In this document: piece by piece, positions 24,556-51,730 of the stretch | How positions within the stretch are numbered: the first letter of the stretch is position 1 | Layout of the letters: each line of letters starts with the position of its first letter | DNA from: an uncultured Verrucomicrobiae bacterium | GTDB taxonomy: Bacteria > Verrucomicrobiota > Verrucomicrobiia > Limisphaerales > UBA1100 | Assembly: GCA_937775205.1 (NCBI GenBank) | Contig: CALKBX010000016.1 | Span: 50,992 to 114,991, forward strand | Reading direction: 5' to 3' | DNA: 64,000 nt | The notes under the pieces: model-generated | Told to the model about the DNA's origin: nothing | Seen by the model: only the letters and a program-made list of their open reading frames with translations | The model's database searches: none | Made by a program: the position numbers and the translations under genes

Positions 24556-24677
24556 GAACGCGAGGCTTTTAGCAAAAAACCAGCGAAATGGAAAGTCCGG
24601 GGTGCGCCTCCCGTTGTGCCCAATATAATGAATTCACTTGCCACCTGATTCCTCGCCGCCACAATGCCCTCAACGCT

Positions 24678-34846: not shown

Positions 34847-37800
34847 CTACTTTTCCATTTTCACGCCGAGGCGGATTTTGCCGGTAGCTCCGCCTACGCC
34901 ATCGACCATGAAGTAAACTCGGTCGCCGGCGTTGAGGGTGAGTTGGGGCACGATGACGGTGCTGAAGGGGCCCACGCCGCCGGGGGCGTTGTTGTTCCAC
35001 TTGAAGTATTGGTTGTTGAGCGGCACTTGCGCGGCGAGTTGGCCCTTGGGCACGTACATCACGCCGAGGGTGGTGTCGAAGGTGCTGCCTTTGGTGGTGG
35101 CTTCGAGTTCTTTTAGTTTGACGGGATCCGGGCCGGGCCATTCGATGTACCACCACACGGATTTGCCGTGGAAGGCGGGGTGATTGCGCTCGGTGTTTTC
35201 GCGTGTGGCCCCGTTGTTGTGTCCGTTAATTACGGTGGCAAAGACGGTGTTGTTATTTGCCCAACGGCCGCCAAACCATTTAGTGGCGGAATATCGATGG
35301 TCATTGGGCACAGCGGGATTGATGGGTAGATTGGGCACGGTGTTAGTGCCGCCGGGGGGGAGACCTCCGCCACCGCCGGTGCCCAGCCCGCCGCCTTTGT
35401 TGGGCATCCCGCCGCCGCCTTTGGGGAAACTGGGGTTGCCGCCATTGTTTTGATTGGTGTTCGTTGTGCCACCACCTCCACTACTACCGCCGCCGAGCCC
35501 CTTGCCTGGTTTTTTTGCGGTGCCAATGTTGATTTGGTTTGGGTTGGCGGGATTGCCCGCAAATTGGGTGCCCGCGCCACTACCGGCTTGAGTACTTCCA
35601 CCCGTCCGACTGCCGCCACGGGCGAAATTGTTGGGGCGTTCGCCGGGCAATCCTTTGGGGGGGGATGGCCGGGTGGAGGTGCGGGAGGAGGCGCGGCCGG
35701 AACCGTTTGAATCACGGAAGAAAGCGGCGTGATGGCCCACGGCCGAAATGGTGCGTGCGTGATCCAAATACAAGGGTTTGTCGTAGGAGGACAAGGGTGG
35801 AGGCAGGAACATACCGCGCAGCAGACCGGTGGGTTCGCCTTTCCAATAGGCGACCGGGCTGCTGAAAAGCGGTACTGTGGTGCTACCTCGGGTGGATGCG
35901 TAGGCCATTATGGTGCAGTATTTTGCGCCAAAGCCATCGCTTCCCCAGGATGAGAAATGATTGCCCACGGCTAGAAACTCATCAGCCACGCCGTTGGAAT
36001 TTGTGTAGGCGTAGGGGCTGAAGGTGATGCCTGTGTCGTGCGGGTGTAGTCCGGGCGTGCCCGGAGGTGAGCCGGCGCCCACATCGCCCAAACCGTGGGC
36101 GCAGCCGAGCACGTGGCCCAGTTCGTGTTGAAAGGTGTAGCCGCCGCCAAGATATTGCCCCTGTAGTGAGAGGTTGCGAACACTGTCGCGATTGCTGAGC
36201 ACTTGTGAGGAGTTGAAGTCCACACCATCGGGCCGGGTGGTGCCGGACATCAGATTTGGCGGCGGGTTTGGTCCGCGCATGGTGAGTTTCTGAGCTAAAC
36301 CAGCGGCGGCGCCGCCCACGTTTTCGGTGAGAATGCATACTAGGTCGGCACGGGCTGATGAAACGCCCATGGCAAAGTCTCCAAAAGCTCCGTGCAGGTT
36401 TGGATAACGCTGGCCTCTTCCTCCGTTGATGTCCATTCGCAGTGCGCCCACATCCACTCCGTTGGTTCCCACCACGGGCATTACGTTGGCTGGATTTGGT
36501 GGCTGATATGCTTGGCCGTAGGAGATGTCTCCCGTGGTGCTGCGCACCATCATGACGTTGAATCCGGTTCCATTGAAATCAATTTTATTGAGGCCCTTCA
36601 CCGCCTCGCCCATGCTGGAGTGAATGTTAATCTTAGTGGCATCCACCCGACTCACATAATAATCCGTGTTCAAAACAAGCCGCACGCCCGTGCCTCCGGT
36701 GTAGTCGCCATCCGCAGTGATCCCGCGGTTGTTGAATGCGGTTTGGATGGAATTGGTATGGACACCGGAATAAAGACTGATATCGGCATTGTTTAGAGAC
36801 AACGCCGCCGTCCGCATGGTGGCGCCGGCGGGCAAACCAAAATGATGCTGCAAAATAAGGCGATCGGCAACGGAAGCGTTGCCATCCGAGGCGACGATGG
36901 CGGCGCGGATATCCCAAAGGGCGCGGCTCCAAATTTCTCCGTCGTCATGTACGGACCCCACCAAATCGGCGGGGTACATTTTATTGCCGTCAATCCGCCG
37001 CACCATGGGGGGATCAATCGGCGGCCCACCAAAGCATTTGCGAATTCGCAGCCCACCGGCGGCAGTTTTGCCCAGCGAATAAACCTGACTCGCGACGTCC
37101 ACCGCAATGGATTTCACCGGCCCGATAACGGCATTGGCGGTCGCTCCGCCATCCCCCGGATCCGTCACTCCGCCGCCGGATACAACGGAGAGGGTGGAGT
37201 AGGTTTTGTTGCCAAAAAAATTTACTGTAGCTTCCACCCGCCGTACTTTTTGACCCCCTCGATCACCAAAATACAGTCGGCCCGAACCATCAAAAGCAAT
37301 GCCATCCACGTTGGTGAGCAATGCGTTGACCGCATTGACGGGGGTGCCGCCGGCGTCGGGGTTTATTCCACCCACAATGCCAGCCACGGTGCTAATGGTA
37401 CGCAGAGCGGCATTGTCATCCACCAAAATTCTGCGAATGCGCATACTGTTTGCGGTGGAGTTAGCGTCCACATAAACGAAGCGGGTGGTTCCCAAAAAAC
37501 CGGTCTCAATATCCGTAGCCAAAGTGTGTGTGCCACCTAGCCGGGAGCTGGTGGCTGGCTGGTTTTCCAGTTCTGAGGTGCCGCCGCCGCCGAAAAGGAT
37601 GATGGAGCCATTTGTCTCCAGCCGCCAAACCCGTTGCCCCACGGTGCTGCTCAGGTAAAGGCGATTAAGGTCATCAAAGGCTATATCTTCAATGCTGGAA
37701 AAATCCAAAGTGGTGGCCATGGGCGAGGCAGCCCCGGGCTCATTACTAATGGAATTGGGATCCGTTACCCCGCCACCGGCCACGGTGGTGAGTGAGCCAT

Positions 37801-40800
37801 TGGTGTCGATGCGCCGAATACGGCAGGAGCCGGTTGAGTTTTTATCCACGAAGAATATGCCTTCAGTGGAGTTATGATCGATCGCGCCCAGAGTGCCGAG
37901 GCTTTGCTGTAGAGCCACATTGGCCGCGGACGCATTGGCATCCGGGTCTTGCACTCCCCCACCGGCTATAATGGTGAAGGATGAATTTACATCAACCGTG
38001 GTGCCGAAGGTGGCATTAAAATCCATCCGCCGCACGCGGCTACCGTTGTTGTCGGTGAAGTAGAGCTTTTGCCAGTTGGTGGATTCGATGACGAAATCCT
38101 CCACGCTGCGTATCTCAACATCGGTTGAGCGCGCCGAGGAATTGTCGTCGATGAAATTGCCGATGGTGCCGCCGCCTAGGATGGTCTTAATTTCCCCTTT
38201 CGAAACATCGAGTGAATTATCAAAAGTATCAAACCCCATTCCGAACCATTCGCCAACCACGGCGGCATGATGTGTCTGATAAAGCGAATTCCCGTCGTTG
38301 AAGAAGGTGGTTACGGCTAGATAATCGCCAAACCCCTCGCCCATTGCGCCAAATTCTCCGCCAAGGCCCCAGTTGATATTTTGGTCGTATGTAATTGCGT
38401 GACCGTATTCATGAGCCACCACATCGGAATCCTCTGCCGAATCAATGACACCGGTACCAAAATGCAACGAGTTGTTGGCCGACGAGTAAAATGCGTTTTG
38501 AGACCCATCCCATTGAGCACAACTTCGGGTGGCGTTTGCGTCGCGGATGCCATTGGGCGGTGTATTGCTGCTGGAGAATCCCAGTGAACTGATGTGAGCG
38601 CCTACACGATCAATGGTGTAGTAAACATTGGCCTGCTCAAAGCGCACATCGTTGCGGCTATAGTTGTAAATTCGGCCGGCATCATTGGCAAGAGGCACCG
38701 GAGGAGCAGTGCCATTGTCAAGGCGCACCATATCGGCATATGTACCCACAAGCACTCCAGAGCCGGCACTTAGGCGGGGCAAACTCACGTTGGTCATATA
38801 CCCGTCTAACTCGGTGCTGTTATTATCAGCAATTCCTGCGGGATCATCCCTCAGAGTGCCGTCGGCATTCCCGCCTTTTCTCTGGTAAGGGTTGGGGATA
38901 AAAACATTGCCTACGCCCGTGGCGAAGCAGATGCGGTTTTCCTGCGACAACACCCGGCCCGATTGGGCATCCACCACCGTATGAAAATCACCCAGCGGTT
39001 TAAGTGCACAAATCGTTACTTCCCAAGCGAGCTTGGCCCCGCCCCTTTCGTCCGGCCACCACACAAGCTTGCCGGAGCCGGGCATACGCGGGCGCGTCAC
39101 CCCGCCTTTCCGATAAGCCGCCGCCTTGGCTGAGGTTATGGAAATAGCCGGACGAGCCTGAGCATCCACCGATAACGAATGGTGATACTTCGTATGCAAA
39201 GCGTGAATGGCACCGCTAGGTCGCTGATGCACTGAAACATATCCGCCATAAACCGGAATGCCGTGGAGCACTTGCTGGAACCGTGCGTGGCCGGTGCCCA
39301 GCCCATGCTTTACCTCGAGCAATTGTAAATCTGAAGTGTCAGCCTTCATCCGCAGTTGTTGAGCCATCGCACCCAAAAAGGCTCGCGCGCTCTTTTCCGG
39401 ATCCGCCACATCGCCCGGATAATCGAGATACCAATAACTCGCCCGGCCCCCTTCGAACATGGGTTGAGTGGTGCGTTTCCCAATCAACAGCCTCGGATAA
39501 TGTTGGGCGCGGGTGAATACTCCGTTGAATCCGGCCACCACCGGATAGGTCACCTTCGGAATCCCGGGGCCTTCCGGTTTGGGAGCGCCCTTGCCAACGC
39601 TGTCGCCAGGCTTTGGCTGAGGCTTTGGCTGAGGCTTTGGCTGAGGCTTTGGCTGAGGACGCCCGCCCGCTGCTCCGCCTTCGGCGGACTGCACCTGTAC
39701 TTCGGCAAGTTTTGCGGGCTGCTGATACACATTCCAAATCGGGATCGCACTCGCGTTCGTGTCCGGTGCCGTGCCCCATGACTCAAAATAAACCACTGAG
39801 CCGGTGGCCAAACCATGATCCGTGCCGCCAAGCCACTCAATAGTGTCAGCGCCAATATCCACCATTACCAAACCCTTTGCTGGGCCCGTCAAATCGTGAT
39901 ATTGCTGCACTGGTATGTGCGACATGGCAGGCACTCCAGCAGGAAGCGTGGTGACTGGATTACCCGGCACGCCCACATTGGGGTCTGTAAGCCCATGGCT
40001 GGATTCGCCATGCTCCACTGGGCCGGTGTTCAGCTCGGGAGCCTCCTCGTTGCTGTACGTAAAACTGGCAGCATTATCCCCAGCCGCCGGAGACATATCC
40101 ACAATCGGCACCAGCACCCAAGCAATATTGCTTGGCAAATTATTGTGCGGCCATTGCTCGGCCCCTCCGGCTGCCTCAAAGGTGCCCAACCCCCAGTATT
40201 GATCGCCATAAAGCAGGCTGTTGCTATTCTGCCCAATCCACGACAAGGCGTCGCCCAATTCACCCGGCGGCGTCAGCTTGCTGGGATTGTACATCTCATA
40301 CTTGGGTCTGTAGACACCCACCTTTGCGCCATTGGTCCAATCCTTGGTATACGCGGGCGGGTCGGAATCAGTATTAAAAACGGGCCGGACGGGGGCCTGC
40401 ACCTCTTCCCATGCCGCACCACTCGGGCCACCGCTTGATGCAAGCGTGGCATCGCCGCCCGACATGGCCCGCCATCGGGCCAGCGTGACATCCGCCGTGC
40501 GCACTTCAAGGGGGATATGGCAATTTGAAAAAATGGCGTTCGTCAGCTCAATCGTGCGAGTGATGGAAAGCTTGAGGTTCTCAAGCTGATCCTCTGGAGT
40601 CGCGCCGGTCTGGGCCGCCCGTAGATCATCGGTATAAACAAAAAGGACATCGATGATTTCCACATCGCCCCCGCGCAGATGTTCCAAAATGCCGGGCGAT
40701 GAGGGGCCCGTGGATTGGATGGCGGACCCGCCCCGACCCCAGAGACCGAAGCTGCGGGTATTATCAATCGCAGCCAAAATAGGTTGGCTGAACCTCACGG

Positions 40801-41809
40801 CATCGAGCAAATCATGCGAGCCGGTGTTCACTGGGTTTCCCGGTCTAACTGACGCCGAAGGCGCCGTGGTCACGGTCGAGTCGCTCTTCGGGGGATTCGA
40901 GCGAACTTTTACTTGTTTGAATTTTTCCTTGATCGAAGCAAACGAACGGCATTTTTTACAAGCCACCCCCGCTTGATGGGAATGATCGCCAGTGCCGATG
41001 AGCGCCTGTGCCTCTTCGGTGCCGCGCAATATCCGCTGCATTGCCCTCGCCTCGGGCGTGGATTGCGCGGCAGGTTTTGCCGCTGCAGTTTTCACCGGCT
41101 GCTTTGCCGCCCCCAGCTCGATGACGCCGCCGCAGCCGGGAATCTTCGATTGATCCACCTCCACGATAACGTGTTTGCCATCGATCTCGTGTGAAATTAA
41201 ATATTGCGTGCCGAACGTATCCACCAACACGCCCATCAACTTCCCTGGCTGGGTGGTTTTGCGGCACATCAACATCAGCGTGTCCGGATCATTATCCAGC
41301 CGACCGACCGAGGTTTCCGCGCCCCCATCAATAAACCGCCGCACCACCACCTCGGTGCTCACCTGAAGATCATCAAACAGATTCAGCCGAATCTTGCCGC
41401 CCAGCGTATTCAACCGCTCCAACGCATCGGGCGAAAGCTTCACCCAACGATGGCGCTTGGCAAGGTTGGATTCAAAAAACGTTTCCGGCCGTTCGCTCTC
41501 CGGCACGTCCACAAACAACTCCGGCCCGTTCTTCCAAAGATCATATTGCCAGTAGCCCACCAAACCCAAAATCACAATCACCATCGAAACCAAGCCCGCC
41601 ACCAATGCGCGCTTGTTCGCCACCGCCAATCCCTCGATGGGCTCGTCGATTTCGCGCAGGGCATACTCCTCATTTTCCCAACGACGACAAATCACCATCG
41701 CCTCATCTTTATCAATAGTGCCCGTGCTGCGCTGCGTCCGCCGCCCATCCGCCGTGGCGTAGCAGCAAACCCAATTATCACTTTTTAGTCGTTTACGTAA
41801 ACTGGCCAT
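34847..41809 (-). CDS. 2320-aa membrane-anchored multidomain protein: integrase-arm-like N-terminus, TM helix, reprolysin-like metzincin, M36/M4-like metallopeptidase with FTP/PepSY propeptide, NHL-like beta-propeller, Gly-rich linker, C-terminal beta-sandwich
   Basis: One uninterrupted ORF. HEYGH (38399-38413) plus GEGFGD. HELGHVLGCAH (36095-36127) plus Met-turn CTIMAY. Propeller motifs GGGV.DP / R.RR.D x6-7. C-terminal SVWWYIEW...FDTTLGVMY...GDRVYFMVDG. Confidence 0.85.
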   Translation of the reverse strand: MASLRKRLKSDNWVCCYATADGRRTQRSTGTIDKDEAMVICRRWENEEYALREIDEPIEGLAVANKRALVAGLVSMVIVILGLVGYWQYDLWKNGPELFVDVPESERPETFFESNLAKRHRWVKLSPDALERLNTLGGKIRLNLFDDLQVSTEVVVRRFIDGGAETSVGRLDNDPDTLMLMCRKTTQPGKLMGVLVDTFGTQYLISHEIDGKHVIVEVDQSKIPGCGGVIELGAAKQPVKTAAAKPAAQSTPEARAMQRILRGTEEAQALIGTGDHSHQAGVACKKCRSFASIKEKFKQVKVRSNPPKSDSTVTTAPSASVRPGNPVNTGSHDLLDAVRFSQPILAAIDNTRSFGLWGRGGSAIQSTGPSSPGILEHLRGGDVEIIDVLFVYTDDLRAAQTGATPEDQLENLKLSITRTIELTNAIFSNCHIPLEVRTADVTLARWRAMSGGDATLASSGGPSGAAWEEVQAPVRPVFNTDSDPPAYTKDWTNGAKVGVYRPKYEMYNPSKLTPPGELGDALSWIGQNSNSLLYGDQYWGLGTFEAAGGAEQWPHNNLPSNIAWVLVPIVDMSPAAGDNAASFTYSNEEAPELNTGPVEHGESSHGLTDPNVGVPGNPVTTLPAGVPAMSHIPVQQYHDLTGPAKGLVMVDIGADTIEWLGGTDHGLATGSVVYFESWGTAPDTNASAIPIWNVYQQPAKLAEVQVQSAEGGAAGGRPQPKPQPKPQPKPQPKPGDSVGKGAPKPEGPGIPKVTYPVVAGFNGVFTRAQHYPRLLIGKRTTQPMFEGGRASYWYLDYPGDVADPEKSARAFLGAMAQQLRMKADTSDLQLLEVKHGLGTGHARFQQVLHGIPVYGGYVSVHQRPSGAIHALHTKYHHSLSVDAQARPAISITSAKAAAYRKGGVTRPRMPGSGKLVWWPDERGGAKLAWEVTICALKPLGDFHTVVDAQSGRVLSQENRICFATGVGNVFIPNPYQRKGGNADGTLRDDPAGIADNNSTELDGYMTNVSLPRLSAGSGVLVGTYADMVRLDNGTAPPVPLANDAGRIYNYSRNDVRFEQANVYYTIDRVGAHISSLGFSSSNTPPNGIRDANATRSCAQWDGSQNAFYSSANNSLHFGTGVIDSAEDSDVVAHEYGHAITYDQNINWGLGGEFGAMGEGFGDYLAVTTFFNDGNSLYQTHHAAVVGEWFGMGFDTFDNSLDVSKGEIKTILGGGTIGNFIDDNSSARSTDVEIRSVEDFVIESTNWQKLYFTDNNGSRVRRMDFNATFGTTVDVNSSFTIIAGGGVQDPDANASAANVALQQSLGTLGAIDHNSTEGIFFVDKNSTGSCRIRRIDTNGSLTTVAGGGVTDPNSISNEPGAASPMATTLDFSSIEDIAFDDLNRLYLSSTVGQRVWRLETNGSIILFGGGGTSELENQPATSSRLGGTHTLATDIETGFLGTTRFVYVDANSTANSMRIRRILVDDNAALRTISTVAGIVGGINPDAGGTPVNAVNALLTNVDGIAFDGSGRLYFGDRGGQKVRRVEATVNFFGNKTYSTLSVVSGGGVTDPGDGGATANAVIGPVKSIAVDVASQVYSLGKTAAGGLRIRKCFGGPPIDPPMVRRIDGNKMYPADLVGSVHDDGEIWSRALWDIRAAIVASDGNASVADRLILQHHFGLPAGATMRTAALSLNNADISLYSGVHTNSIQTAFNNRGITADGDYTGGTGVRLVLNTDYYVSRVDATKINIHSSMGEAVKGLNKIDFNGTGFNVMMVRSTTGDISYGQAYQPPNPANVMPVVGTNGVDVGALRMDINGGRGQRYPNLHGAFGDFAMGVSSARADLVCILTENVGGAAAGLAQKLTMRGPNPPPNLMSGTTRPDGVDFNSSQVLSNRDSVRNLSLQGQYLGGGYTFQHELGHVLGCAHGLGDVGAGSPPGTPGLHPHDTGITFSPYAYTNSNGVADEFLAVGNHFSSWGSDGFGAKYCTIMAYASTRGSTTVPLFSSPVAYWKGEPTGLLRGMFLPPPLSSYDKPLYLDHARTISAVGHHAAFFRDSNGSGRASSRTSTRPSPPKGLPGERPNNFARGGSRTGGSTQAGSGAGTQFAGNPANPNQINIGTAKKPGKGLGGGSSGGGGTTNTNQNNGGNPSFPKGGGGMPNKGGGLGTGGGGGLPPGGTNTVPNLPINPAVPNDHRYSATKWFGGRWANNNTVFATVINGHNNGATRENTERNHPAFHGKSVWWYIEWPGPDPVKLKELEATTKGSTFDTTLGVMYVPKGQLAAQVPLNNQYFKWNNNAPGGVGPFSTVIVPQLTLNAGDRVYFMVDGVGGATGKIRLGVKMEK
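39609..39656 (-). repeat. 4 x 12-nt tandem repeat encoding a (PQPK)n linker in the giant protein
   Basis: ggctttggctga x4 on the plus strand, corresponding to residues 717-734. Confidence 0.95.
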
Positions 41810-41917: not shown

Positions 41918-41995
41918 ACAACCTTTTTTATTCACAGGTTTTGGGCGGTTTTTTAAATTTTCAAACTTTTGCAGGAAATTTTCCGTACTCGCAAG

Positions 41996-42042
41996 CTCAT
42001 CCCTCCATTCAAAGTCAAAACCGCATCGATTGGAGGGACGAG
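41996..42042 (+). other. 12-bp (one mismatch) inverted repeat / stem-loop in the intergenic region upstream of the MoxR operon
   Basis: ctcatccctcca...23 nt...tggagggacgag. Confidence 0.4.
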
Positions 42043-42119
42043 CTTGCAGGTCCAAACCCAAAACAAAATTAACCGACAAACCCAAAAATCAAACACCCCA
42101 AACCCACAACGAACTCCCC

Positions 42120-42148
42120 TTGACAGAATTGAAAACCGCATTATCTTC
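42120..42148 (+). promoter_or_regulatory. Candidate sigma70-like promoter (TTGACA-16 nt-TATCTT) for the MoxR/vWA operon
   Basis: A consensus -35 at 42120-42125. The -10 ends about 13 nt before the ATG at 42161, implying a very short leader. Confidence 0.3.
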
Positions 42149-42160
42149 ATCCCAGTAGCG

Positions 42161-43567
42161 ATGAACCCATCCGACCGATCACTTCAATCATTTTCACGAC
42201 GTGTTTACGCCATGATGTTCCGGCGCACTGCCCTGCGTTGGATGGGGGTGTGGCTGATGGGGCTGGGTGTGCTGGCTTTGGTGGTGCGACTCACAGCGAG
42301 TTTGCCGCCGTATTGGTGGGCGTATGGATTGGGGTCGCTGGTCATTTTGTTGGGCGCGGCATGGCAGCGCGAATTGAAGCGCCGACCGAGTGCGGAACAA
42401 TTGCGCGCCACCTTCGATAAAGAAAACAAGGCCGGCGGTTTGGTGATGGCCGATGCCGAAGTGAACACGGAGGCGTGGGCGGAACGACAAAATAATTTGC
42501 GCCTTCCCAATCTGCGCTGGCGCGGGGGTCGCGCGTATGGTGGGCTGATGTTAGCGTTAATTTTTCTGGCGGTCACCCTGCTCGTCCCCACGCGCTTTGC
42601 CAAACTGCTCGCTGAGCCGCCACTGGAGATTGGCCAAACTATTGAGCAAGCGCGCGAACAGGTGAATATTTTGGAGGAGGAAAATATTCTGTCCGAACAG
42701 GAAGCCGAAGTGAAGCGTTCGGAACTGGAACGACTCAAAGAGGATGCCACCGGTTTTAATCCAGCCAAAACTTGGGAGGCGCTCGACCACCTCAAGCTCT
42801 CCAATCAAAACCTCGCCGAACAAGCCGCGCAGGAAGCCCTGGAAAAAATGGCCGCCCTCACCGAAGCCGAGTTGCTCGGCAATGCCGTCGACAAAATGCC
42901 GGCCGATGCCGCGCCTGATTCGGAAGAAAAAGCATTGAAGGAACTGGGCGCGTTATTGAATGACCTGTTAGATAACGAAGCGCTGGAAAATCTCGCGCCG
43001 GAAATCCAAAAGGCCCTCCAGCAAGCCGGCCAAAAAAACCTGCCGATGGATCCCGAACAACTCGCGCCGCTGCTCAAGGCGTTGCGCGAAAATAAAGACG
43101 CCCTCCAAAAGCTCGCGCAAAAGCTCGCGCAAAATAATCTCATCCCGCCCGGGCTAGCCGAGCAACTCAAAGGCGCGGGCGAATTGCCCGGTGGCCAAGC
43201 CCTCAAGGATTTATTGGCCAAGGGCGGCTTTCAACAGGAAGAACTGCGCGAGTTTTTGGAGCAAATGGGCCAGGGCCAAGGCGGCCTCGAACGCGGCCCC
43301 GGCGCAGGCCCAACCCAATACGGCCAACCCACGGACGAAGCGGGCGCGGCGTTTAAGGAGGAAAAACTTTCACCCAGCGTGAGTCTCAATCAGGCGCGCC
43401 TCGCGGGGGTGACCTCCAGCGCGCCGGAAGTCACTGGCGGCGAAGCGGTGCTCGGCCGCGATGCATTGCAAAACACCCAAGCCGGCGGCGGCAGCGCGCT
43501 GACCGCCCCCGTCCTCCCCCGCCATCGCGGCACAGTAAATCGCTTTTTCCAACGCGGGGAAGATTGA
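42161..43567 (+). CDS. Membrane protein with a long acidic coiled-coil region (first gene of the MoxR/vWA operon)
   Basis: 468 aa. Three N-terminal TM helices, E/L/K/Q-rich heptad-like stretches, and a C-terminal ..LPRHRGTVNRFFQR tail. Confidence 0.6.
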   Translation: MNPSDRSLQSFSRRVYAMMFRRTALRWMGVWLMGLGVLALVVRLTASLPPYWWAYGLGSLVILLGAAWQRELKRRPSAEQLRATFDKENKAGGLVMADAEVNTEAWAERQNNLRLPNLRWRGGRAYGGLMLALIFLAVTLLVPTRFAKLLAEPPLEIGQTIEQAREQVNILEEENILSEQEAEVKRSELERLKEDATGFNPAKTWEALDHLKLSNQNLAEQAAQEALEKMAALTEAELLGNAVDKMPADAAPDSEEKALKELGALLNDLLDNEALENLAPEIQKALQQAGQKNLPMDPEQLAPLLKALRENKDALQKLAQKLAQNNLIPPGLAEQLKGAGELPGGQALKDLLAKGGFQQEELREFLEQMGQGQGGLERGPGAGPTQYGQPTDEAGAAFKEEKLSPSVSLNQARLAGVTSSAPEVTGGEAVLGRDALQNTQAGGGSALTAPVLPRHRGTVNRFFQRGED

Positions 43568-43634
43568 TTGGTAGGGACACGCCTTTTTTGCGTGAATGGC
43601 CCGTCCGGTGCGGTTAGGGTTTCCACACATTCCT

Positions 43635-44678
43635 ATGAGTGAAACTACCCGCCTACTCAAACCGGAAGAACTGACTCCGGCCACCGAACTCACCCGGCAA
43701 GTGCTGGAACAACTCGATCGCAGCCTGCTCGGGCGCGCGGAGCTGCATCGGCTCGTGCTCATCGGCCTGCTCAGTCGCGGCCACATTTTATTGGAAGGCC
43801 TTCCCGGCTTGGGCAAAACCGCGCTGGTGCAAACCATCGGCAACGTGATGAAGCTGCAATTCAGCCGCGTGCAGTTTACGCCGGACCTCATGCCGGGCGA
43901 TGTGCTGGGCACGCATATTTTGCAGGAGACGGACACGGGCAAACGCGAAATGATTTTTGAACCGGGCCCGGTGTTCACTAATATTTTGTTGGCGGACGAA
44001 ATCAACCGCGCCTCGCCCAAAACCCAAAGCGCGATGCTCGAGACGATGCAGGAACACTCCGTCACTTTGCGCGGCCAAACGCGGCCGTTGCCCGATCCGT
44101 TCTTCGTGCTCGCCAGCCAAAACCCCATCGAGATGGAGGGCACGTATCCGCTGCCCGAGGCGCAACTGGACCGCTTTCTTTTTCGCGTGATGTTCGATGC
44201 GGTGGATGCGTCGGTGCTGCAAAACATCATCACCGGTCGGCGCCGCGGCAATGTGCCCGCGCCGGAATGGCAGCTCGACGCCGATGACCTCAACTATCTT
44301 TTCAGTGTAATGGAACATATTTTCCTGCCCAAACCGGTGGCGAGTTATATCGCGCGATTGGTTTCGGCCACGCATCCGGACAACGCCGAGGCACCGGAGC
44401 CGGTTGCGCGCTACGTTCAATACGGCGCTTCCCCACGCGCCGCCATCGCCATGGCCGAGGCGGCGCGGGCCCACGCGCTGGTGGATGGCCGCCCCACCGT
44501 CGGCTTTGAAGATGTGCGCGCCATCGCGCGGCCGGTTTTGAACCATCGGTTGATTTTGAATTATCAAGCGCGCTTCGACCGCGTGGATGCCCACGGCGTG
44601 CTCGATCAATTACTCGAAGCCCTCGACGACACCGGCCTGCATTTGCCCGAGGATGTTTCCCTGCAACCCACCAGATGA
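43635..44678 (+). CDS. moxR: MoxR-family AAA+ ATPase
   Basis: LLEGLPGLGKT (Walker A), LLADEINRASPKTQSAMLE (Walker B region), PEAQLDRF. Confidence 0.9.
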   Translation: MSETTRLLKPEELTPATELTRQVLEQLDRSLLGRAELHRLVLIGLLSRGHILLEGLPGLGKTALVQTIGNVMKLQFSRVQFTPDLMPGDVLGTHILQETDTGKREMIFEPGPVFTNILLADEINRASPKTQSAMLETMQEHSVTLRGQTRPLPDPFFVLASQNPIEMEGTYPLPEAQLDRFLFRVMFDAVDASVLQNIITGRRRGNVPAPEWQLDADDLNYLFSVMEHIFLPKPVASYIARLVSATHPDNAEAPEPVARYVQYGASPRAAIAMAEAARAHALVDGRPTVGFEDVRAIARPVLNHRLILNYQARFDRVDAHGVLDQLLEALDDTGLHLPEDVSLQPTR

Positions 44679-46604
44679 TCCGTCTTTGGCAAATCGTGTG
44701 TGTCGTGCCATTGCTAGCCTTTAGCCTATTGGGCGGTGAGCTGACGTTCAAAAATGTGCACATCCGCACGCGCACCCTCGCCGATGCGCAACATTCCCAT
44801 GGATACACGGCGCACCAGTTTGAGCTGGAAAACCTTTCCGGAAAAAAACACACGGTTACGATCCAATTCCCGTCAGAAGATCACCACGACGGATCCAACA
44901 TCACAGATCTGCGCCGCACCGTGGCACTCGGCCCAAATAGCCGTAAAGTGGTTTCGCTATATCAACCACCCCTTTCCATCGACTCTTATGCCCGCAGCGC
45001 ATTCATCACCGTGGATGGCGAAACACGCCGGCTAGCTGATGCCTTTGGCGGCCATGTGAACAGCCTCGCCAATCTGGGCATCCACCAGCCGGCGGTGGTG
45101 CTGGCCAGCCGTTCGTGGAACGGCAAGTTTGCCTCGAACCCAACATACGAGGTGAACATCGCCGAAGGACTCATCACCCAGTGGGCGCGCCATTGGCTAG
45201 CATATAGCGGGTTTGACGTGGTGGTGGTGCGCGCGAACGAATGGAACGCGGCTCCGACTGAGGTTCGGATGGCCATTGTGCAATACGTGCGCGCGGGTGG
45301 ACGACTGTTCGTACTGGGATCCATCACTTTACCGCCGGACGCCCGAAAGCTGAACACCACCCAACTGGCCGCCCGGCAGCAGTCGGCAAGCGCTCTGTTA
45401 GAAAAAGTGAACATCATTAGCGTCTCCAAATCCTCCGGAAGGGAAGACTATCCGGAAGAAAACATGGGGCATGAAGAACATGAGGGACATAAGCAGCCTG
45501 GAAACCGGCCAGACACAGAATCCCTCCGCAGTCGCGAGCTCCGTGTATACTCTGGGGTGGGGGCTGATCCGAGTACTGGACCCTACGGTCACCGAAATGA
45601 GAAACCATCGGAGCATGCTAGAGGCAATTGAAAATCTCCGCTCCAACGAACAAGTCCGGATGCCAGCTTTGTCATCCGTAATGGCCGGCGCTCGGAATTT
45701 GCATACCGAAGATAAATATTCTTATTATCAGGAATCTTCGGGCAGCTTCGACGATTACTTTCCCATCGTGGAAGACTCCGGTGTGCCGGTGCGATTAATG
45801 ATTGTGATTTTAATTGGGTTTGTAGTTTTGGCGGGGCCGGTGAATTTGGTATTGCTGCACAAGCTTAAGCGGCGGACGTGGTTTTTGTGGACTCTCCCGG
45901 CAATATCAATACTCACCAGTGCAGTGGTGTTTGCCACAGCGCTGCTCAACGAGGGCTTCACGCCCACAGTGCGGCGTGATGTCATCACAATTCTTGATCA
46001 CCAATCCCAACAGGCAACCACCGTCGGCGCGCTGGGCATTTACGCGCCGGTAGCTCCGGGGAATCTGGAATTCTCCGCACACACAGAGGTGACCCCGTTG
46101 CTCAGTTCCCGCGGTCAGGATTCCGGTAGTAATCGCGGAATAAACTGGACGAAAGGGCAACTCTTTACTGGGAAATGGATAGCCTCGCGCGTACCAGCAC
46201 ATTTTGCGGTACGAAAAAGTGAGTCGCGCAAGGAACGCCTCAGTGTCACGTGGAAAAGTGGCACGCCCACGGTGGTGAACAGCCTCGGCACGGACATCAC
46301 CTACTTGTGCTTGGCGGATGCACAGGGAAACATTTTTGAAGCCACCCACCTTCGCGCCGGGCAACGCGCCGAACTCCAACGTGTCGCGGGCAAACAAACG
46401 GTCATCAATTATTTGAACACCAACTTTTTGTTGTCTACCGACAAGGATACCCCGGAAAGTGAGTACCCGAAAAACCTCTCGGCGGGCACCTACCTCGCGC
46501 GGCTGGATGACTCCCCCTTTATGGAAAACCCCATCGGCCGCGGGCAGCTCAAGACACACGCGGTGGTGCTGGGCGTACTCACAAAATCGGAGGCCGGCCC
46601 GTGA
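44675..46604 (+). pseudogene. Signal-peptide/TM protein of unknown function, probably one ~640-aa gene split by a frameshift near 45465
   Basis: ORFs 44675-45631 and 45471-46604 overlap by 160 nt in different frames. The frame-2 tail is low-complexity, whereas frame 0 reads YTLGWGLIRVLDP... ATGA/GTGA coupling at both ends. Confidence 0.5.
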
Positions 46605-47530
46605 AAATTCGTGTGCAAAATCTGCGGCGTGAGTTTGGCAAAACAATCGCGGTAAACTCCGTTTCCTTTGAGTTTGAGTCCGGCCAAATCTACGCCTTCG
46701 TCGGCCCCAACGGCGCGGGCAAAACCACCACCATGCGCATTATGGCCACGCTCGATGAGCCCAACGCCGGTGATGTGTTTATGGACGATCTCTCGGTGGT
46801 GGAGTATCCGGAAAAGGCGCGCCAGATCATCGGTTTTGTGCCCGATGAATTGAAGCCGTATTGGGACACCACCGTGCACGAGTACCTTGATTTTTTCGCG
46901 CGCGCCTACGGACTGCGCGGCACTCAACGCACCGAAGCCGTGGCCAGCGTGGAGGAATTCACCAACGTAGCGGGCATTCGCGAGAAGACGTTGCGCTCGT
47001 TGTCCAAAGGAATGAAACAGCGCGTCAGCCTCGGGCGCGCGTTGGTGGCCGATCCGCAGGTGCTCATTCTCGACGAGCCCGCCGCCGGATTGGATCCCCG
47101 CGCGCGGGTGGAACTGCGCGAACTCCTCACCCTCCTCGCCAAGCAAGGCAAAGCCATTCTCATCAGCTCGCACATTCTCACGGAGCTGACGGAAATTTGC
47201 GACGGCGTCGTCATCATCGAACAGGGCAACCTGTTGGAGAGCGGCAACATCGATGACGTCATGGCCAAGCGCACGCCGCGCCGCACTTACGCCCTGCGCG
47301 TGCTGGGCGAGCCACGGGATTTACTGCGCGAGCTGCTGCAAACCGCCCACGTGGAAAACCCGCGCATGGCCGGCACTGAATTGCATTTCGAAGTGGAAGG
47401 CGGCGAGGACGAAGCCTTTGGCGTGCTCAACGCCCTCATCGTCGCCGGCCATCGCGTGGTGGAATTCCGCCAAACCAAAGCCAACCTCGAGGACATTTTT
47501 ATGAACGTCACCACCGGAGGCGTCCAATGA
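46601..47530 (+). CDS. ABC transporter ATP-binding protein (ABC-2 subfamily type)
   Basis: GPNGAGKTT (Walker A), LSKGMKQR (signature), LILDEP (Walker B). The GTG start overlaps the upstream TGA. Confidence 0.9.
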   Translation: MKIRVQNLRREFGKTIAVNSVSFEFESGQIYAFVGPNGAGKTTTMRIMATLDEPNAGDVFMDDLSVVEYPEKARQIIGFVPDELKPYWDTTVHEYLDFFARAYGLRGTQRTEAVASVEEFTNVAGIREKTLRSLSKGMKQRVSLGRALVADPQVLILDEPAAGLDPRARVELRELLTLLAKQGKAILISSHILTELTEICDGVVIIEQGNLLESGNIDDVMAKRTPRRTYALRVLGEPRDLLRELLQTAHVENPRMAGTELHFEVEGGEDEAFGVLNALIVAGHRVVEFRQTKANLEDIFMNVTTGGVQ

Positions 47531-49117
47531 GCGAGGCGGTGAAATCCACGCGCTTCGCTTGGCTGCGCAGCATCGAGCCCAACGCCGTGTTGGTGAAAGA
47601 CCTCCGCCAAGCCGCGCGCAACTGGTCGGTCACCGGCGCGGTGCTGTTGATGATGGCCATTTTCTTCGTCGTTTCGCTGGGCTTCCTGCTTACTGACGAA
47701 ATGGCCGGACGCGGCAATTACCTTGGCGCGCAACTCTTCGGTTCCATCGCAGGTGTGATGATGGCGGTCACCTTTATTTTCCTGCCCATTTACGTAGGCA
47801 TCCGCTCCATCGCCGAGCGCGCTAGCGCTAGCGCGGATTTGCTGTACATCACCACCATGAGCCCTGCGCGCATCATCGCCGGCAAATTCCTCAGCGGCGC
47901 AGCCTTGGTGGGGATCTTCTTCACGGCGGCGCTGCCCTTCATGGTGTTCAGCTATTTACTACGCGGCATTGATCTACCAACCATCTTGCTGACAGTGAGG
48001 CTACCTGTATGTATTGAACTGCCTGCTTCTACTGGCGGCAATGATGCTGGCTTCAATGGGGATTCATTTCATTTTCAAAATCCTCATCGCATTGTTCGTT
48101 GGGTTGCCGTTGATATTTTACACCATGGCTGCGGTTCTCGGCACGGCAATGATTGCCGGATTTGGCGGAGCTCTTTCGGGTGGCCGATTCTTGGCGGAGG
48201 CCCTGCCCATCATCCTTACCATACTGCTGAATATCGGCCTCGCGGCCGGGTTGCTATTTTTCCTGTGTGTTTCCTTTATCACCCCGCGCACTGCCAATCG
48301 CGAGTTTCCGCTGCGCGTGTATTGCGCGGTGATGTGGGCGGTAATCGGGCTGGAGGCCGGCGTGTGGACTTTGGTGAAAGATGATTGGGAAATATTTGGC
48401 TACGTATTTGGAGCCTTCTGCGGACTGCTGGGGGCACTGGGGATTTTTTACGCCATCGGGCAGGAGGATCACCTCAGCGTGCGAGTGCGTCGTGATATCC
48501 CGCGTAATCCCCTTCGCCGTGCGGTGGCATTTTTATTTTTCAACGGCGCACTCGGTGGGTTAATCCTGAGTTGTCTGTTCAGTTTTGGAGGATTACTGCT
48601 CATATTCGCTAGCTTGGAGGCGTGGCCCATGCTCACGGGAAGTTCCTCGAGCACACATGATTGGAGTGAATTTTGTTCCGGCTTCATAATACTGGGATTG
48701 TACCTCATCGCCCATGCGCTAATGTCGCTGTGGATCCACCGCACATGGCTACCAACCCGCAGCCCGATGTGGTCGCGCCTGTTTTTTTTGGTGAGTATCG
48801 TGATTCCGTATTGCGCCACTTATGTGATTTACTATCTGTTCACCCAGGATTTTCTCGAGGACGGAACGATCCCCGGTATCATGCTCAATTCTTTCTATGC
48901 CATCGCCGATGGGGATGAGGAGAGTGTATACGCCCACCTAATTGCCGCGCTGGTGTTGGCGGTGGGGGCTCTGGTGTTGAATGCAAAATGGATTTTCGAG
49001 CGCCTCAAGGATTTCAAACCCTACGAACGCCCGACGACTCCCGTGCCTCCCACGCCACCCGTAACCCAAACTGCACCAGCAGCCAATGAAAACCCCATTC
49101 CGCCAAAGCTTGGTTGA
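47527..49117 (+). pseudogene. ABC-2-type polytopic permease with a frameshift near 47997
   Basis: ..RGIDLPTILLTV (frame 1) continues as GYLYVLNCLLLLAAMMLASMGIHF.. (frame 2). One extra base is present at gtg-a-ggc. Confidence 0.6.
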
Positions 49118-49952
49118 TGGCGAACAGGCAGGGATGCGTTACGCGCTGTGCCTGCCCAACTCGCCGATGAGCGGCGTGCGCGGCGAACGCCTCGGCCGCC
49201 GCGCGGGCAGCTCGGTGGATTTCCAGGATTACCGCGAGTACCAACCGGGCGATGACCTCCGCCACATTGACTGGAACGCTTACGCCCGCAGCAATCAACT
49301 CATCGTCAAACTGCATCGCGAGGAAGTGCAGCCGCATCTCGATCTCATTCTCGATACCTCCGCCTCGATGAATTTGCCCGATACCGACAAGCCCGCCGCG
49401 CTGCATCAACTCGCCGCGCTGCTCGCCACCGCCGCCGCCAACGCGCGTTGCTCGCAGGCGCTGTGGATGACCGGCGAAGGCTTCCAACGTGTCCGCAACG
49501 ACACCCAACCGCCTGGCGCGTGGGGCGAGCTGCCGATGGGCGGCGCGCGGTCATTTGAGGAAGCCCACGGATTGCTGCCCCCGCGCCTGCGCCGTCAAGG
49601 AATGCGGGTGATCATCAGCGACCTGCTGTGGCCCGGCGATCCGCTACCCACGCTGCGCAAACTCGCCGAGGGCGCGGCCAGTTTGCACGTCATCCAATTG
49701 CTCGCGCGCACCGATGCCACCGCGCCCGAGCCGGGCAACGTGCAGTTGCAGGACACCGAGACCGGCGAGATGCTCTCCATTTATGTCGACGCGAGCATCA
49801 GGGAAACCTACCGCGACACCCTCCGCCGCCTGCAACAAAGCTGGCACAACGCCTGCAAACAAACCGGCGCGCAACTCACCACCCTCATCGCCGAAGACCT
49901 CGGTCAGTCGCTGTCCGCGCTGGAGGAAATCCAACTGCTGGAGCCCGCCTGA
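49086..49952 (+). CDS. DUF58 family protein (vWA-like fold, MoxR partner)
   Basis: GSSVDFQDYREYQPGDDLRHIDWNAYARSNQLIVKLHREE. An alternative start at 49134 lies after the permease stop. Confidence 0.85.
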   Translation: MKTPFRQSLVDGEQAGMRYALCLPNSPMSGVRGERLGRRAGSSVDFQDYREYQPGDDLRHIDWNAYARSNQLIVKLHREEVQPHLDLILDTSASMNLPDTDKPAALHQLAALLATAAANARCSQALWMTGEGFQRVRNDTQPPGAWGELPMGGARSFEEAHGLLPPRLRRQGMRVIISDLLWPGDPLPTLRKLAEGAASLHVIQLLARTDATAPEPGNVQLQDTETGEMLSIYVDASIRETYRDTLRRLQQSWHNACKQTGAQLTTLIAEDLGQSLSALEEIQLLEPA

Positions 49953-51721: not shown

Positions 51722-51730
51722 ACACGACCG

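What the first reader, a model, noticed from the sequence alone, without database searches (positions are those of the whole stretch)
34847..41809. Giant membrane-anchored protein with apparently nested metalloprotease domains (metzincin split by an M36/M4-like protease that is itself split by a beta-propeller)
Seen in sequence. Residues ~115-560 look like the propeptide and N-terminal half of a bacterial reprolysin-type domain (IIDVLFVYTDDL....ITRTIELTNAIFSNCHIPLEVR). The matching C-terminal half appears only ~1300 residues later: ARADLVCILTE..., HELGHVLGCAH (an exact HExxHxxGxxH) and the Met-turn CTIMAY, at residues ~1815-1975. The intervening segment holds a PQPK linker, an FTP/PepSY-type propeptide and an M36/M4-like site (HEYGH...GAMGEGFGDY at 1133-1162). 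The expected C-lobe of that site (VHDDGEIWSRALWD...ADISLYSG...AFNNRGI, 1619-1697) is in turn separated from it by ~400 residues of 6-7 NHL-like blades (GGGV.DP / R.RR.D). The inference is three domains inserted into one another, giving two different zinc-protease active sites on one tail-anchored polypeptide, plus a Gly-rich linker and a C-terminal beta-sandwich. I do not know of a described family with this arrangement.
Basis: partly seen in the sequence, partly recalled or inferred. Interest (0 to 1): 0.72.

Follow-up and report, generated by a model that had tools for sequence, protein, structure and literature searches.

The report
Protease nested inside a split protease
One 2320-residue membrane-anchored protein of a marine Verrucomicrobiota bacterium has a zinc-protease domain cut in two by about 1370 residues that hold a second, complete zinc protease, itself interrupted by a six-bladed propeller. 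This architecture is real and conserved, and I found no description of it.

Summary

- **ORF.** Window 34847-41809 (-) is one 2320-aa ORF with a single N-terminal membrane helix, so it is not tail-anchored.
- **Inner nest.** Removing residues 1198-1598 (six NHL-like blades) gives an M36 sequence that aligns end to end with thousands of ordinary M36 peptidases and with solved fungalysins.
- **Outer nest.** Residues 383-444 are the beta1-alphaA-beta2 start of a reprolysin-like metzincin domain. The rest (RADLV, HELGHVLGCAH, CTIMAY) lies at 1820-1970.
  - An HMM of this N-lobe alone finds the start of the catalytic domain in 88 of 120 ordinary contiguous metzincins, against 0 of 120 reversed controls.
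  - Its start sits 140-159 residues before HExxH in 82 of 95 of them. In this protein the distance is 1522.
- **Relatives lacking the inserts.** Some lack both (P0004, P0005, P0136), some lack only the propeller (P0132, P0145), and one has a propeller but no M36 (P0006).
- **Refinements.** The M36 module sits inside a family-specific insert of about 400 aa, not directly in the metzincin loop. Some relatives carry their giant insert in a second metzincin loop (beta4/beta5), with up to about 2650 aa between beta3 and HExxH.

Function is inferred only. No structure shows the two lobes packing.

The parts
34847..41809 (-). Whole ORF, 2320 aa plus stop codon. It is monocistronic: the flanking genes are on the + strand on both sides.
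41630..41809 (-). Residues 1-60: cytoplasmic N-terminal segment. It is far more conserved than the rest of the protein (about 82% identity to P0006 by my count on the alignment, against 32% in the adjoining BLAST segment). It matches no known family.
41546..41614 (-). Residues about 66-88: the only transmembrane helix, acting as an N-terminal signal anchor.
   Evidence: Kyte-Doolittle score above 1.6 only here
41090..41533 (-). Residues 93-240: conserved N-terminal ectodomain of unknown fold (80-91% identity to orthologues).
40454..40693 (-). Residues 373-452: metzincin N-lobe (beta1, alphaA, beta2; core 383-444).
39731..40453 (-). Residues 453-693: family-specific insert with the motifs PAW..V.APVRP, NSLxYGDQYW and PE..TGPV. 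It ends with the first half of the small HGLATGSVVYF element.
39500..39730 (-). Residues 694-770: PQPK-rich linker, poorly conserved (39-45% identity).
38927..39499 (-). Residues 771-961: M36 propeptide (FTP at 836-868; weak PepSY at 889-957).
38219..38926 (-). Residues 962-1197: first part of the M36 catalytic domain (HEYGH at 1133, the zinc-ligand Glu in GEGFGD at 1158).
37016..38218 (-). Residues 1198-1598: six-bladed NHL-like beta-propeller inserted in the M36 catalytic domain.
   Evidence: TEN_NHL 28.6 bits against a cut-off of 27.1
36695..37015 (-). Residues 1599-1705: second part of the M36 catalytic domain (VHDDGEIW ... AFNNRGI).
36374..36694 (-). Residues 1706-1812: second half of the small element (LVLNTDYYVSRVDATKINIH...), then YGQA..GALRMD..QRYPNLHG, which leads back into the metzincin. 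The PNLHG..GD stretch aligns with helix alphaB of contiguous relatives.
35690..36373 (-). Residues 1813-2040: the remainder of the metzincin catalytic domain (beta3 RADLVCILTE at 1820, HELGHVLGCAH at 1895, Met-turn CTIMAY at 1965, C-terminal helix).
35315..35689 (-). Residues 2041-2165: Gly/Asn/Pro-rich low-complexity linker.
34850..35314 (-). Residues 2166-2320: conserved C-terminal domain of unknown fold (72-82% identity to orthologues; no Pfam or NCBIfam match).

Best explanation
**What it is.** The gene encodes a membrane-anchored, extracytoplasmic protein with two zinc-endopeptidase domains, in a marine Verrucomicrobiota bacterium. It belongs to an undescribed family of split reprolysin-like (Pfam Reprolysin_5 type) metzincins.

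**The family architecture.** In this family the catalytic domain is interrupted after beta2, ahead of the stretch that aligns with helix alphaB of contiguous relatives, by a family-specific insert of about 400 aa. Lineage-specific cargo modules are nested inside that insert.

**The cargo here.** It is a complete M36 (fungalysin-type) zymogen: an FTP/PepSY propeptide plus a catalytic domain. Its catalytic domain is in turn interrupted by a six-bladed NHL-like beta-propeller. The propeller sits between the helix carrying the zinc-ligand Glu and the C-terminal subdomain carrying the conserved His. The sequence order is A1-B1-C1-D-C2-B2-A2.

**Shown.** Both sets of catalytic residues are intact: HEYGH, E1158 and H1620 for M36; HELGHVLGCAH and the Met-turn for the metzincin. 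All folded modules are equally conserved among orthologues.

**Inferred, not shown.**
- Both proteases are active on proteinaceous or glycoprotein substrates outside the cytoplasm.
- The propeller, like the LamG, FG-GAP, PQQ and Ig modules of relatives, serves as a substrate-binding exosite.
- Nesting keeps the modules attached even if a linker is cut. Autoprocessing of the M36 propeptide would leave two chains held together by the metzincin fold.
For: **ORF and motifs:**

**Inner nest:**. Ordinary M36 proteins and solved fungalysins align across the 1197/1599 junction with no gap on their side.

**Outer nest:**
- 200 representatives at E<=1e-3.
- 111 of 149 carry both N-lobe and C-lobe matches.
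- the distant hits are bona fide Reprolysin_5/4/3 domains, and the N-lobe match coincides with profile position 4-5.
- 88 of 120 against 0 of 120 reversed; spacing of 140-159 aa in 82 of 95.
- the reciprocal HMM from 86 contiguous domains hits Q383-444 and Q1877-1996.
- splice test with controls.
- the alignment shows IIDxxxVYT...TNxxFxNSxIPLxxRL shared with contiguous relatives.
- AlphaFold2 gives pLDDT 93-97 for the N-lobe and pTM 0.65.
- 47 of the top 50 Foldseek hits are adamalysin, ADAM or ADAMTS chains; the other three are chains of one unrelated entry (6o38).

**Homologues without the inserts:**

**Other cargo in relatives:**

**Selection on every module:**. Modules are 59-91% identical to orthologues; linkers are 39-54%.

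**Independent assemblies with the same architecture:**

**Taxonomy:**; all 13 loci come from Verrucomicrobiota assemblies.
Against: - No coordinates of the model were available, so packing of the N-lobe against the C-lobe is inferred from pLDDT and pTM. It was not seen directly.
- Foldseek matches are short local alignments (57 columns, E about 0.01), and I cannot tell which segment they cover.
- For the window protein itself, splicing the N-lobe onto the C-lobe did not raise the Pfam score (17.3 against 17.4 bits). Its Reprolysin matches stay below Pfam's gathering thresholds.
- The contiguous relatives used were selected with a profile that contained the N-lobe. This is an ascertainment bias, mitigated by the positional consistency and by the independent Pfam annotation.
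- The middle insert is predicted with low confidence (pLDDT 25-45).
- There are no expression or activity data.
- One relative (P0004) has Arg in place of the third zinc His.
- In a diderm cell an N-terminal anchor would place the protein in the periplasm rather than on the surface, so localisation is open.
Confidence: 0.82

Rival explanations
1. This is an ordinary tandem multidomain protein. Residues 383-452 would be an unrelated or relic beta-alpha-beta unit, and the C-terminal metzincin would be complete or degenerate on its own.
For: Pfam alone sees only profile positions of about 60-160 in the C-terminal part. It finds nothing at 383-452 in the whole protein. Splicing did not improve the window protein's own Pfam score.
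Against: - N-lobe HMM tests in both directions, with reversed controls and constant spacing.
- The N-lobe match coincides with the start of the Pfam domain in contiguous relatives.
- No second N-lobe-like match anywhere in ten family members.
- The N-lobe is never missing from complete family members.
- High pLDDT for the N-lobe.
Confidence: 0.04
2. This is an assembly or gene-calling artefact: separate genes (a metzincin, an M36 and a propeller protein) fused by misassembly or frameshift into one ORF.
For: The window comes from a metagenome assembly. One relative, P0008, ends in frameshifted sequence.
Against: - The same uninterrupted architecture occurs in independent assemblies at 65-75% identity: P0001 on a 187-kb contig, P0002, P0003 and P0135.
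- Junctions are precise at residue level relative to contiguous M36 proteins.
- A misassembly cannot place the C-lobes back in register after the inserts.
- The ORF has no stop codon in 6.96 kb.
Confidence: 0.02
3. The nested architecture is real, but one or both protease domains are not working endopeptidases. They would serve as binding or scaffold pseudo-enzymes, or act only in self-processing, and the protein would be mainly an adhesin or a surface display scaffold for variable modules.
For: - The cargo of relatives is dominated by binding modules: LamG_3, FG-GAP, PQQ, NHL and Ig.
- P0004 lacks the third zinc His.
- The metzincin has unusually long loops, for example 60 aa between the third His and the Met-turn.
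Against: - All catalytic residues of both sites are conserved in the window protein and its orthologues.
- The M36 module keeps its inhibitory propeptide, which makes sense only for an active enzyme.
- The metzincin C-lobe is among the best conserved parts, at 79-82% identity.
Confidence: 0.12

Closest known systems
Bacterial reprolysin-like metzincins (Pfam Reprolysin_5/4/3; MEROPS M12B-like), e.g. representatives P0167, P0175 and P0180
   Same: They share the beta1-alphaA-beta2 N-lobe, the ADLV beta3 strand, HExxHxxGxxH, the Met-turn (T.MAY) and the C-terminal FSNP..Y.G..TG...DNA helix region. All of these align.
   Different: Their catalytic domain is contiguous: the N-lobe starts 140-159 aa before HExxH. 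Here the distance is 1522 aa, and 522 aa in the minimal family members. The residue after the third His is Gly here, not Asp.
Pappalysin-1 (PAPP-A), a metzincin with two LNR modules inserted in its catalytic domain (PMC9579167)
   Same: It is a metzincin catalytic domain that hosts inserted modules. Disrupting Ca2+ binding in its LNR modules abolishes cleavage of one substrate (IGFBP-4) but not another (IGFBP-5).
   Different: From my own knowledge, not tested here: the LNR inserts are small, and none of them is an enzyme. Here the insert is 375 to about 2900 aa and contains a complete second protease. PAPP-A belongs to a different metzincin family (M43), and the insertion site was not compared.
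M36 fungalysins and bacterial M36 peptidases (PDB 4k90, 7qfy; B. cereus M36, P0114)
   Same: FTP propeptide, HExxH, the GEGxxD Glu ligand and the C-terminal His. Identity is 29-48% over the whole zymogen once residues 1198-1598 are removed.
   Different: None of the 120 best M36 relatives is longer than 593 aa, so none of them carries the propeller. Here a 401-aa propeller sits between 'VGEW...' and 'RRIDGNKMYP'. The whole zymogen is internal to another protein and has no signal peptide of its own.
Nested domain insertions in general (A1-B1-C-B2-A2 patterns; six-level nesting in cyanobacterial RNA polymerase; PMC13114784)
   Same: The same formal architecture. Insertions occur in about 20% of multidomain proteins, and recursive nesting is documented.
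   Different: That survey does not mention proteases or propellers, and it reports inserts as consistently smaller than their hosts. Here the inserted material (about 1370 aa) is about six times larger than the host domain, and one enzyme is nested in another of the same catalytic class.

Membership tests
Metzincin, reprolysin-like (Pfam Reprolysin_5/3/4) | Extended zinc-binding motif HExxHxxGxxH | tested here: met
   HELGHVLGCAH at residues 1895-1905. It aligns with the HE..GH..G..H of 62 out of 62 contiguous relatives.
Metzincin, reprolysin-like (Pfam Reprolysin_5/3/4) | Met-turn downstream of the zinc motif | tested here: met
   CTIMAY at 1965-1970. The Met column is shared with 61 of 62 contiguous relatives.
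Metzincin, reprolysin-like (Pfam Reprolysin_5/3/4) | N-terminal beta1-alphaA-beta2 subdomain homologous to the family | tested here: met
   Q383-444 matches positions 3-58 of an HMM of 86 contiguous domains (27.4 bits; reversed controls below 0). The N-lobe HMM finds the domain start in 88 of 120 relatives.
Metzincin, reprolysin-like (Pfam Reprolysin_5/3/4) | Contiguous catalytic domain of about 200 aa | tested here: not met
   1522 aa separate the start of the N-lobe from HExxH, against 140-159 aa in relatives.
Metzincin, reprolysin-like (Pfam Reprolysin_5/3/4) | Score above Pfam's gathering threshold | tested here: not met
   Reprolysin_5 scores 24.0 bits (cut-off 27) and Reprolysin_3 scores 21.6 (cut-off 22.4) on the native protein. 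The spliced relative P0006 reaches 31.9 and 26.3.
Metzincin, reprolysin-like (Pfam Reprolysin_5/3/4) | The two sequence halves fold into one catalytic domain | tested here: inconclusive
   The AlphaFold2 model of P0005 has confident N- and C-lobes and pTM 0.65. No coordinates or PAE were available, and Foldseek gave only 57-column local matches to adamalysins.
Peptidase M36 (fungalysin) | Pfam Peptidase_M36 and FTP above their gathering thresholds | tested here: met
   M36 scores 37.0 bits (cut-off 23.3) and FTP scores 37.2 (cut-off 21).
Peptidase M36 (fungalysin) | HExxH plus the downstream Glu ligand and the C-terminal catalytic His | tested here: met
   HEYGH at 1133, GEGFGD at 1157-1162 and VHDDGEIW at about 1619 align with HEYTH, GEGWGD and VHAIGTYW of 7qfy.
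Peptidase M36 (fungalysin) | Full-length collinear alignment with canonical members | tested here: met
   This holds only after removing residues 1198-1598: 97% coverage and 36-48% identity. The junction maps to a single residue of P0015 and P0114.
NHL-type six-bladed beta-propeller | Six sequence repeats of about 60-70 aa, with a family HMM match | tested here: met
   Six repeats at regular spacing. TEN_NHL scores 28.6 bits against a cut-off of 27.1 when the insert is scanned alone.
NHL-type six-bladed beta-propeller | Closed propeller fold with adjacent termini | not tested
Nested domain insertion (A1-B1-C-B2-A2) | Homologues of the host exist without the insert, at each level | tested here: met
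   P0004, P0005 and P0136 lack the M36 and the propeller. P0132 and P0145 have an M36 without the propeller. Contiguous metzincins lack everything.

The most novel reading that the evidence does not exclude
The metzincin fold of this family acts as a hyper-permissive, non-covalent clasp.
- Two different loops of one small catalytic domain accept inserts of 0.4 to nearly 3 kaa: one after beta2 and one between beta4 and beta5.
- Because both ends of each insert are locked in the folded host, cargo stays attached after linker cleavage.
- Autoprocessing of the nested M36 propeptide would turn the single chain into a two-chain enzyme. The metzincin core alone would hold the two chains together, and through them the link to the membrane anchor.

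The family would then be a natural display platform for enzymes and binding modules, and a ready-made template for domain-insertion engineering.
Probability: 0.25. Interest if true: 0.78.

Novelty: new variant of a known kind. Interest (0 to 1): 0.66.

Why it matters
- **Tolerance of the fold.** A roughly 200-residue metzincin catalytic domain can apparently carry an insertion several times its own size, at two different loops. That insertion can even hold a complete zymogen of another metalloprotease, which is itself split by a propeller.
- **Rarity.** I know of no other protease nested inside a protease. This rests on my own knowledge and three literature searches, not on an exhaustive survey. 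Inserts are normally smaller than their hosts (PMC13114784).
- **Annotation.** The family is invisible to current tools. Pfam sees only fragments of the metzincin, below threshold, so such proteins are filed as 'M36' or as hypothetical.
- **Biology and engineering.** It offers natural examples for studying folding of discontinuous domains, for insertion-site engineering, and for how marine Verrucomicrobiota attack protein or glycoprotein substrates.

Tried and rejected
- **First AlphaFold2 run failed.** P0005 residues 355-1064 with a 14-row alignment (A3) gave mean pLDDT 32.
- **PDB sequence searches found little.** The family profile gave nothing. The spliced N+C profile gave only weak HExxH matches to fragilysin.
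- **Splicing did not help the window protein itself.** Its Pfam Reprolysin score did not rise. The effect is seen only for P0005 and P0006.
- **Foldseek was limited.** The second model gave only 57-column local matches at E about 0.01. No coordinates were available to measure contacts between the lobes.
- **No family match for five regions**, in Pfam, NCBIfam or PDB: the N-terminal 60 aa, the 93-240 ectodomain, the 453-693 insert, the small HGLATG/YYV element and the C-terminal domain.
- **No paralogue** of the protein or of its N-terminus exists in the window.
- **Literature searches** found nothing on this architecture.
- **Rejected ideas:** an artefactual gene fusion, and a tandem rather than nested arrangement (see the rival explanations).
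Full report
**Observation**

The finding's coordinates are exact. Window 34847-41809 on the minus strand is a single ORF of 2320 codons. Pfam on the intact protein gives these matches:
- FTP at 836-868.
- Weak PepSY at 889-957.
- The end of the M4 catalytic profile at 1101-1140.
- Peptidase_M36 in two stretches, the better one at 1618-1698 against profile positions 273-365 of 368.
- TEN_NHL at 1247-1345.
- Reprolysin_3 and Reprolysin_5 at 1820-1908, just below threshold.

The only hydrophobic helix is at about 66-88. The protein is therefore anchored by its N-terminus and is not tail-anchored.

The gene lies in an ordinary chromosomal neighbourhood: sulfatase, DUF3500, a TAT-signal oxidoreductase, a PQQ-repeat protein, a MoxR/BatA/VWA cluster, pyruvate carboxylase and AcrB. 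Genes on the opposite strand flank it on both sides. Relatives occur only in Verrucomicrobiota assemblies, several of them marine by their record titles. The window's own contig is from an ENA metagenome assembly.

**Inner nest: M36 interrupted by a propeller**

I removed residues 1198-1598 and searched with the spliced M36 sequence.
- It matched 3504 proteins. The best 120 are all between 207 and 593 aa long and mostly carry Peptidase_M36 and FTP annotations, with 36-48% identity over about 97% of the query.
- In pairwise alignments the two halves abut on a single residue of the ordinary enzymes. For P0015, Q802-1197 aligns to 61-444 and Q1599-1700 to 444-540. For the B. cereus M36 P0114, Q771-1197 aligns to 2-407 and Q1599-1700 to 407-503.
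- Solved fungalysins (7qfy, 4k90) align across the junction. HEYGH, GEGFGD and VHDDGEIW fall on their HEYTH, GEGWGD and VHAIGTYW.

The module at 771-1705 is thus a complete M36 zymogen without a signal peptide. The 401-residue insert has six regularly spaced blades. Scanned alone, it passes the TEN_NHL threshold.

**Outer nest: metzincin interrupted by everything else**

Close relatives already show that residues 694-1705 are an insertion. P0004 and P0005 align with Q1-680 and Q1711-2320 and have nothing in between.

The harder question was whether residues 383-452 belong to the metzincin domain. A profile search of 1.84 billion representatives returned 200 proteins at E<=1e-3. Re-scoring the best 149 locally showed that 111 carry both an N-lobe match and a C-lobe match. 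The distant ones are ordinary Reprolysin_5/4/3 proteins, and the N-lobe match falls exactly at the start of their Pfam domain. In P0180, for example, Reprolysin_5 covers 177-362 (profile 5-190) and the N-lobe match covers 176-232.

Further tests gave the same answer.
- **N-lobe HMM.** An HMM built from the N-lobe alone (80 columns, 7 family sequences) scores 10 bits or more on 88 of 120 of these proteins, with a maximum of 35.2. On the reversed sequences it does so on 0 of 120, with a maximum of 1.7. Its start lies 140-159 residues before the next HExxH in 82 of 95 cases. In the window protein that distance is 1522.
- **Reciprocal HMM.** An HMM of 86 contiguous catalytic domains, with no family member, hits the window protein twice. 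Positions 3-58 match residues 383-444 (27.4 bits) and positions 122-209 match residues 1877-1996 (42.0 bits). It hits all ten family members tested in the same split way. Reversed controls score below zero.
- **Splice test.** Joining the true N-lobe to the C-lobe raises the Pfam Reprolysin_5 score of P0006 from 22.7 to 31.9 bits and of P0005 from 16.1 to 23.0. It also extends the match to profile position 5-6. Reversed, shuffled or other segments of the same length change nothing. The window protein's own score did not rise.
- **Alignment.** The shared pattern is visible directly: IIDxxxVYT ... TNxxFxNSxIPLxxRL.

**Structure**

A first AlphaFold2 run with a shallow alignment failed, at pLDDT 32. 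A second run used 43 natural family fragments and 62 contiguous relatives (alignment A6, checked). It gave pTM 0.65.
- The N-lobe has pLDDT 93-97: beta1 at 31-39, alphaA at 51-71 and beta2 at 76-85 of the P0005 fragment.
- The core of the C-lobe has pLDDT 83-97: beta3 at 466-471 and the HExxH helix at 536-547.
- Most of the insert is below 50.

Foldseek against the PDB returned adamalysin, ADAM or ADAMTS chains for 47 of the top 50 places, with probability up to 1.00. The other three are chains of one unrelated entry (6o38). The matches are only 57-column local alignments at E about 0.01. No coordinates were available. Packing of the two lobes is therefore inferred and was not observed.

1. 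The M36 module is not inserted directly in the metzincin loop. All family members carry a specific insert of about 400 aa between beta2 and the stretch that aligns with helix alphaB. In the window protein this is residues 453-693 plus 1706-1812. The cargo of the window protein sits in a small 'HGLATGSVVYF | LVLNTDYYVSRV' element of that insert, which is contiguous in P0004 and P0005. That makes at least three, and formally four, levels of nesting.
2. The cargo is variable.
   - None in P0004, P0005 and P0136.
   - A propeller without M36 in P0006.
   - LamG_3 and NHL in P0007.
   - LamG_3, PQQ propellers, Ig and Fib_succ_major in P0131 (3539 aa).
   - LamG_3, FG-GAP and a contiguous M36 in P0132.
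   - Six LamG_3 and ten FG-GAP stretches in P0138 (3847 aa).
3. In P0132, P0137 and P0138 the giant insert lies in a different loop, between beta4 and beta5. RADIV is at 620 but HELGH at 2524 in P0132. RADLV is at 768 but HEIGH at 3416 in P0138.
4. P0132 and P0145 carry an M36 zymogen that lacks the propeller. It is 34-35% identical to the window's over the main alignment. The propeller insertion is thus specific to the window's sub-clade: Q, P0001, P0002, P0003 and P0135.

**Is it functional?**

Among orthologues, every folded module is 59-91% identical while the linkers are 39-54% identical. The catalytic residues of both sites are conserved. The same architecture occurs in several independent assemblies. 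This argues against an artefact or a decaying fusion. Activity, localisation and substrates were not testable here.

My mechanistic proposal is inference. It has three parts: two cooperating endopeptidases with a propeller exosite; nesting as a way to keep modules attached in a proteolytic environment; and propeptide autoprocessing yielding two chains clasped by the metzincin fold.

**Comparison and novelty**

Domain insertion is common and recursive nesting is documented (PMC13114784). A metzincin with small inserted modules is also known: PAPP-A carries two LNR modules in its catalytic domain (PMC9579167).

What I did not find described is the following combination:
- A metzincin domain split by 375 to about 2900 residues.
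- Giant inserts at two different loops of that domain.
- A complete second metalloprotease zymogen inside it.
- That zymogen itself split by a propeller.

The component families are known and the architecture is new. I therefore rate it a new variant of a known kind, with interest 0.66.

Noticed in passing
window 41645-41809 (-), residues 1-55: The cytoplasmic N-terminal segment (MASLRKRLKSDNWVCCYATADGRRTQRSTGT.DKDEA...) is nearly invariant across the family: about 82% identity to P0006, by my count on the alignment, where the adjoining ectodomain is about 32% identical. From memory only, it recalls the N-terminal arm-type motif of tyrosine integrases. Pfam, NCBIfam and PDB gave no match.
   Followed up: partly
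relatives P0132, P0137, P0138 (no window coordinates): These family members carry their giant insert (up to about 2650 aa between beta3 and HExxH) between beta4 and beta5 of the metzincin rather than after beta2. One small catalytic domain therefore has two different insertion sites.
   Followed up: yes
window 36590-36694 and 39731-39790 (-); contiguous in P0004 at about 645-722: The small element 'HGLATGSVVYF ... LVLNTDYYVSRVDATKINIHSS..A..G..IDF.G.G' hosts the cargo insertion. From memory, it resembles a short repeat seen in phage tail-fibre-like proteins. It has no Pfam match.
   Followed up: partly
relative P0004, residues about 866-876: The third zinc-binding His of the metzincin motif is replaced by Arg (HELGHMLGASR). 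This insert-free relative may be inactive or may bind zinc differently.
   Followed up: no
window 41969-43567 (+): The divergently transcribed neighbour (532-aa ORF, called as 451 aa in the source assembly) has no Pfam match. Whether it is functionally linked to the giant protease is unknown.
   Followed up: no
window 43596-54616 (+): A MoxR AAA ATPase is followed by BatA/VWA-domain proteins, which is a Bat-type 'aerotolerance' cluster, directly upstream of the protease gene on the other strand.
   Followed up: no
window 3836-6409 (-) and 24588-27206 (+): Two further large ORFs (857 and 872 aa) have no Pfam match at E<=1e-5. The second overlaps other listed ORFs and may not be a gene.
   Followed up: no
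L013 1167-4226 (contig CAMDJP010000012.1): A distant family member (28% identity over the whole 710-aa query, spread over about 1020 codons) lies in a MAG labelled Akkermansia muciniphila. The family may extend beyond marine Verrucomicrobiota, or the bin may be mislabelled.
   Followed up: no
representatives P0164 and P0168: Among the ordinary contiguous relatives, these two carry two tandem reprolysin-like catalytic domains in one protein.
   Followed up: no
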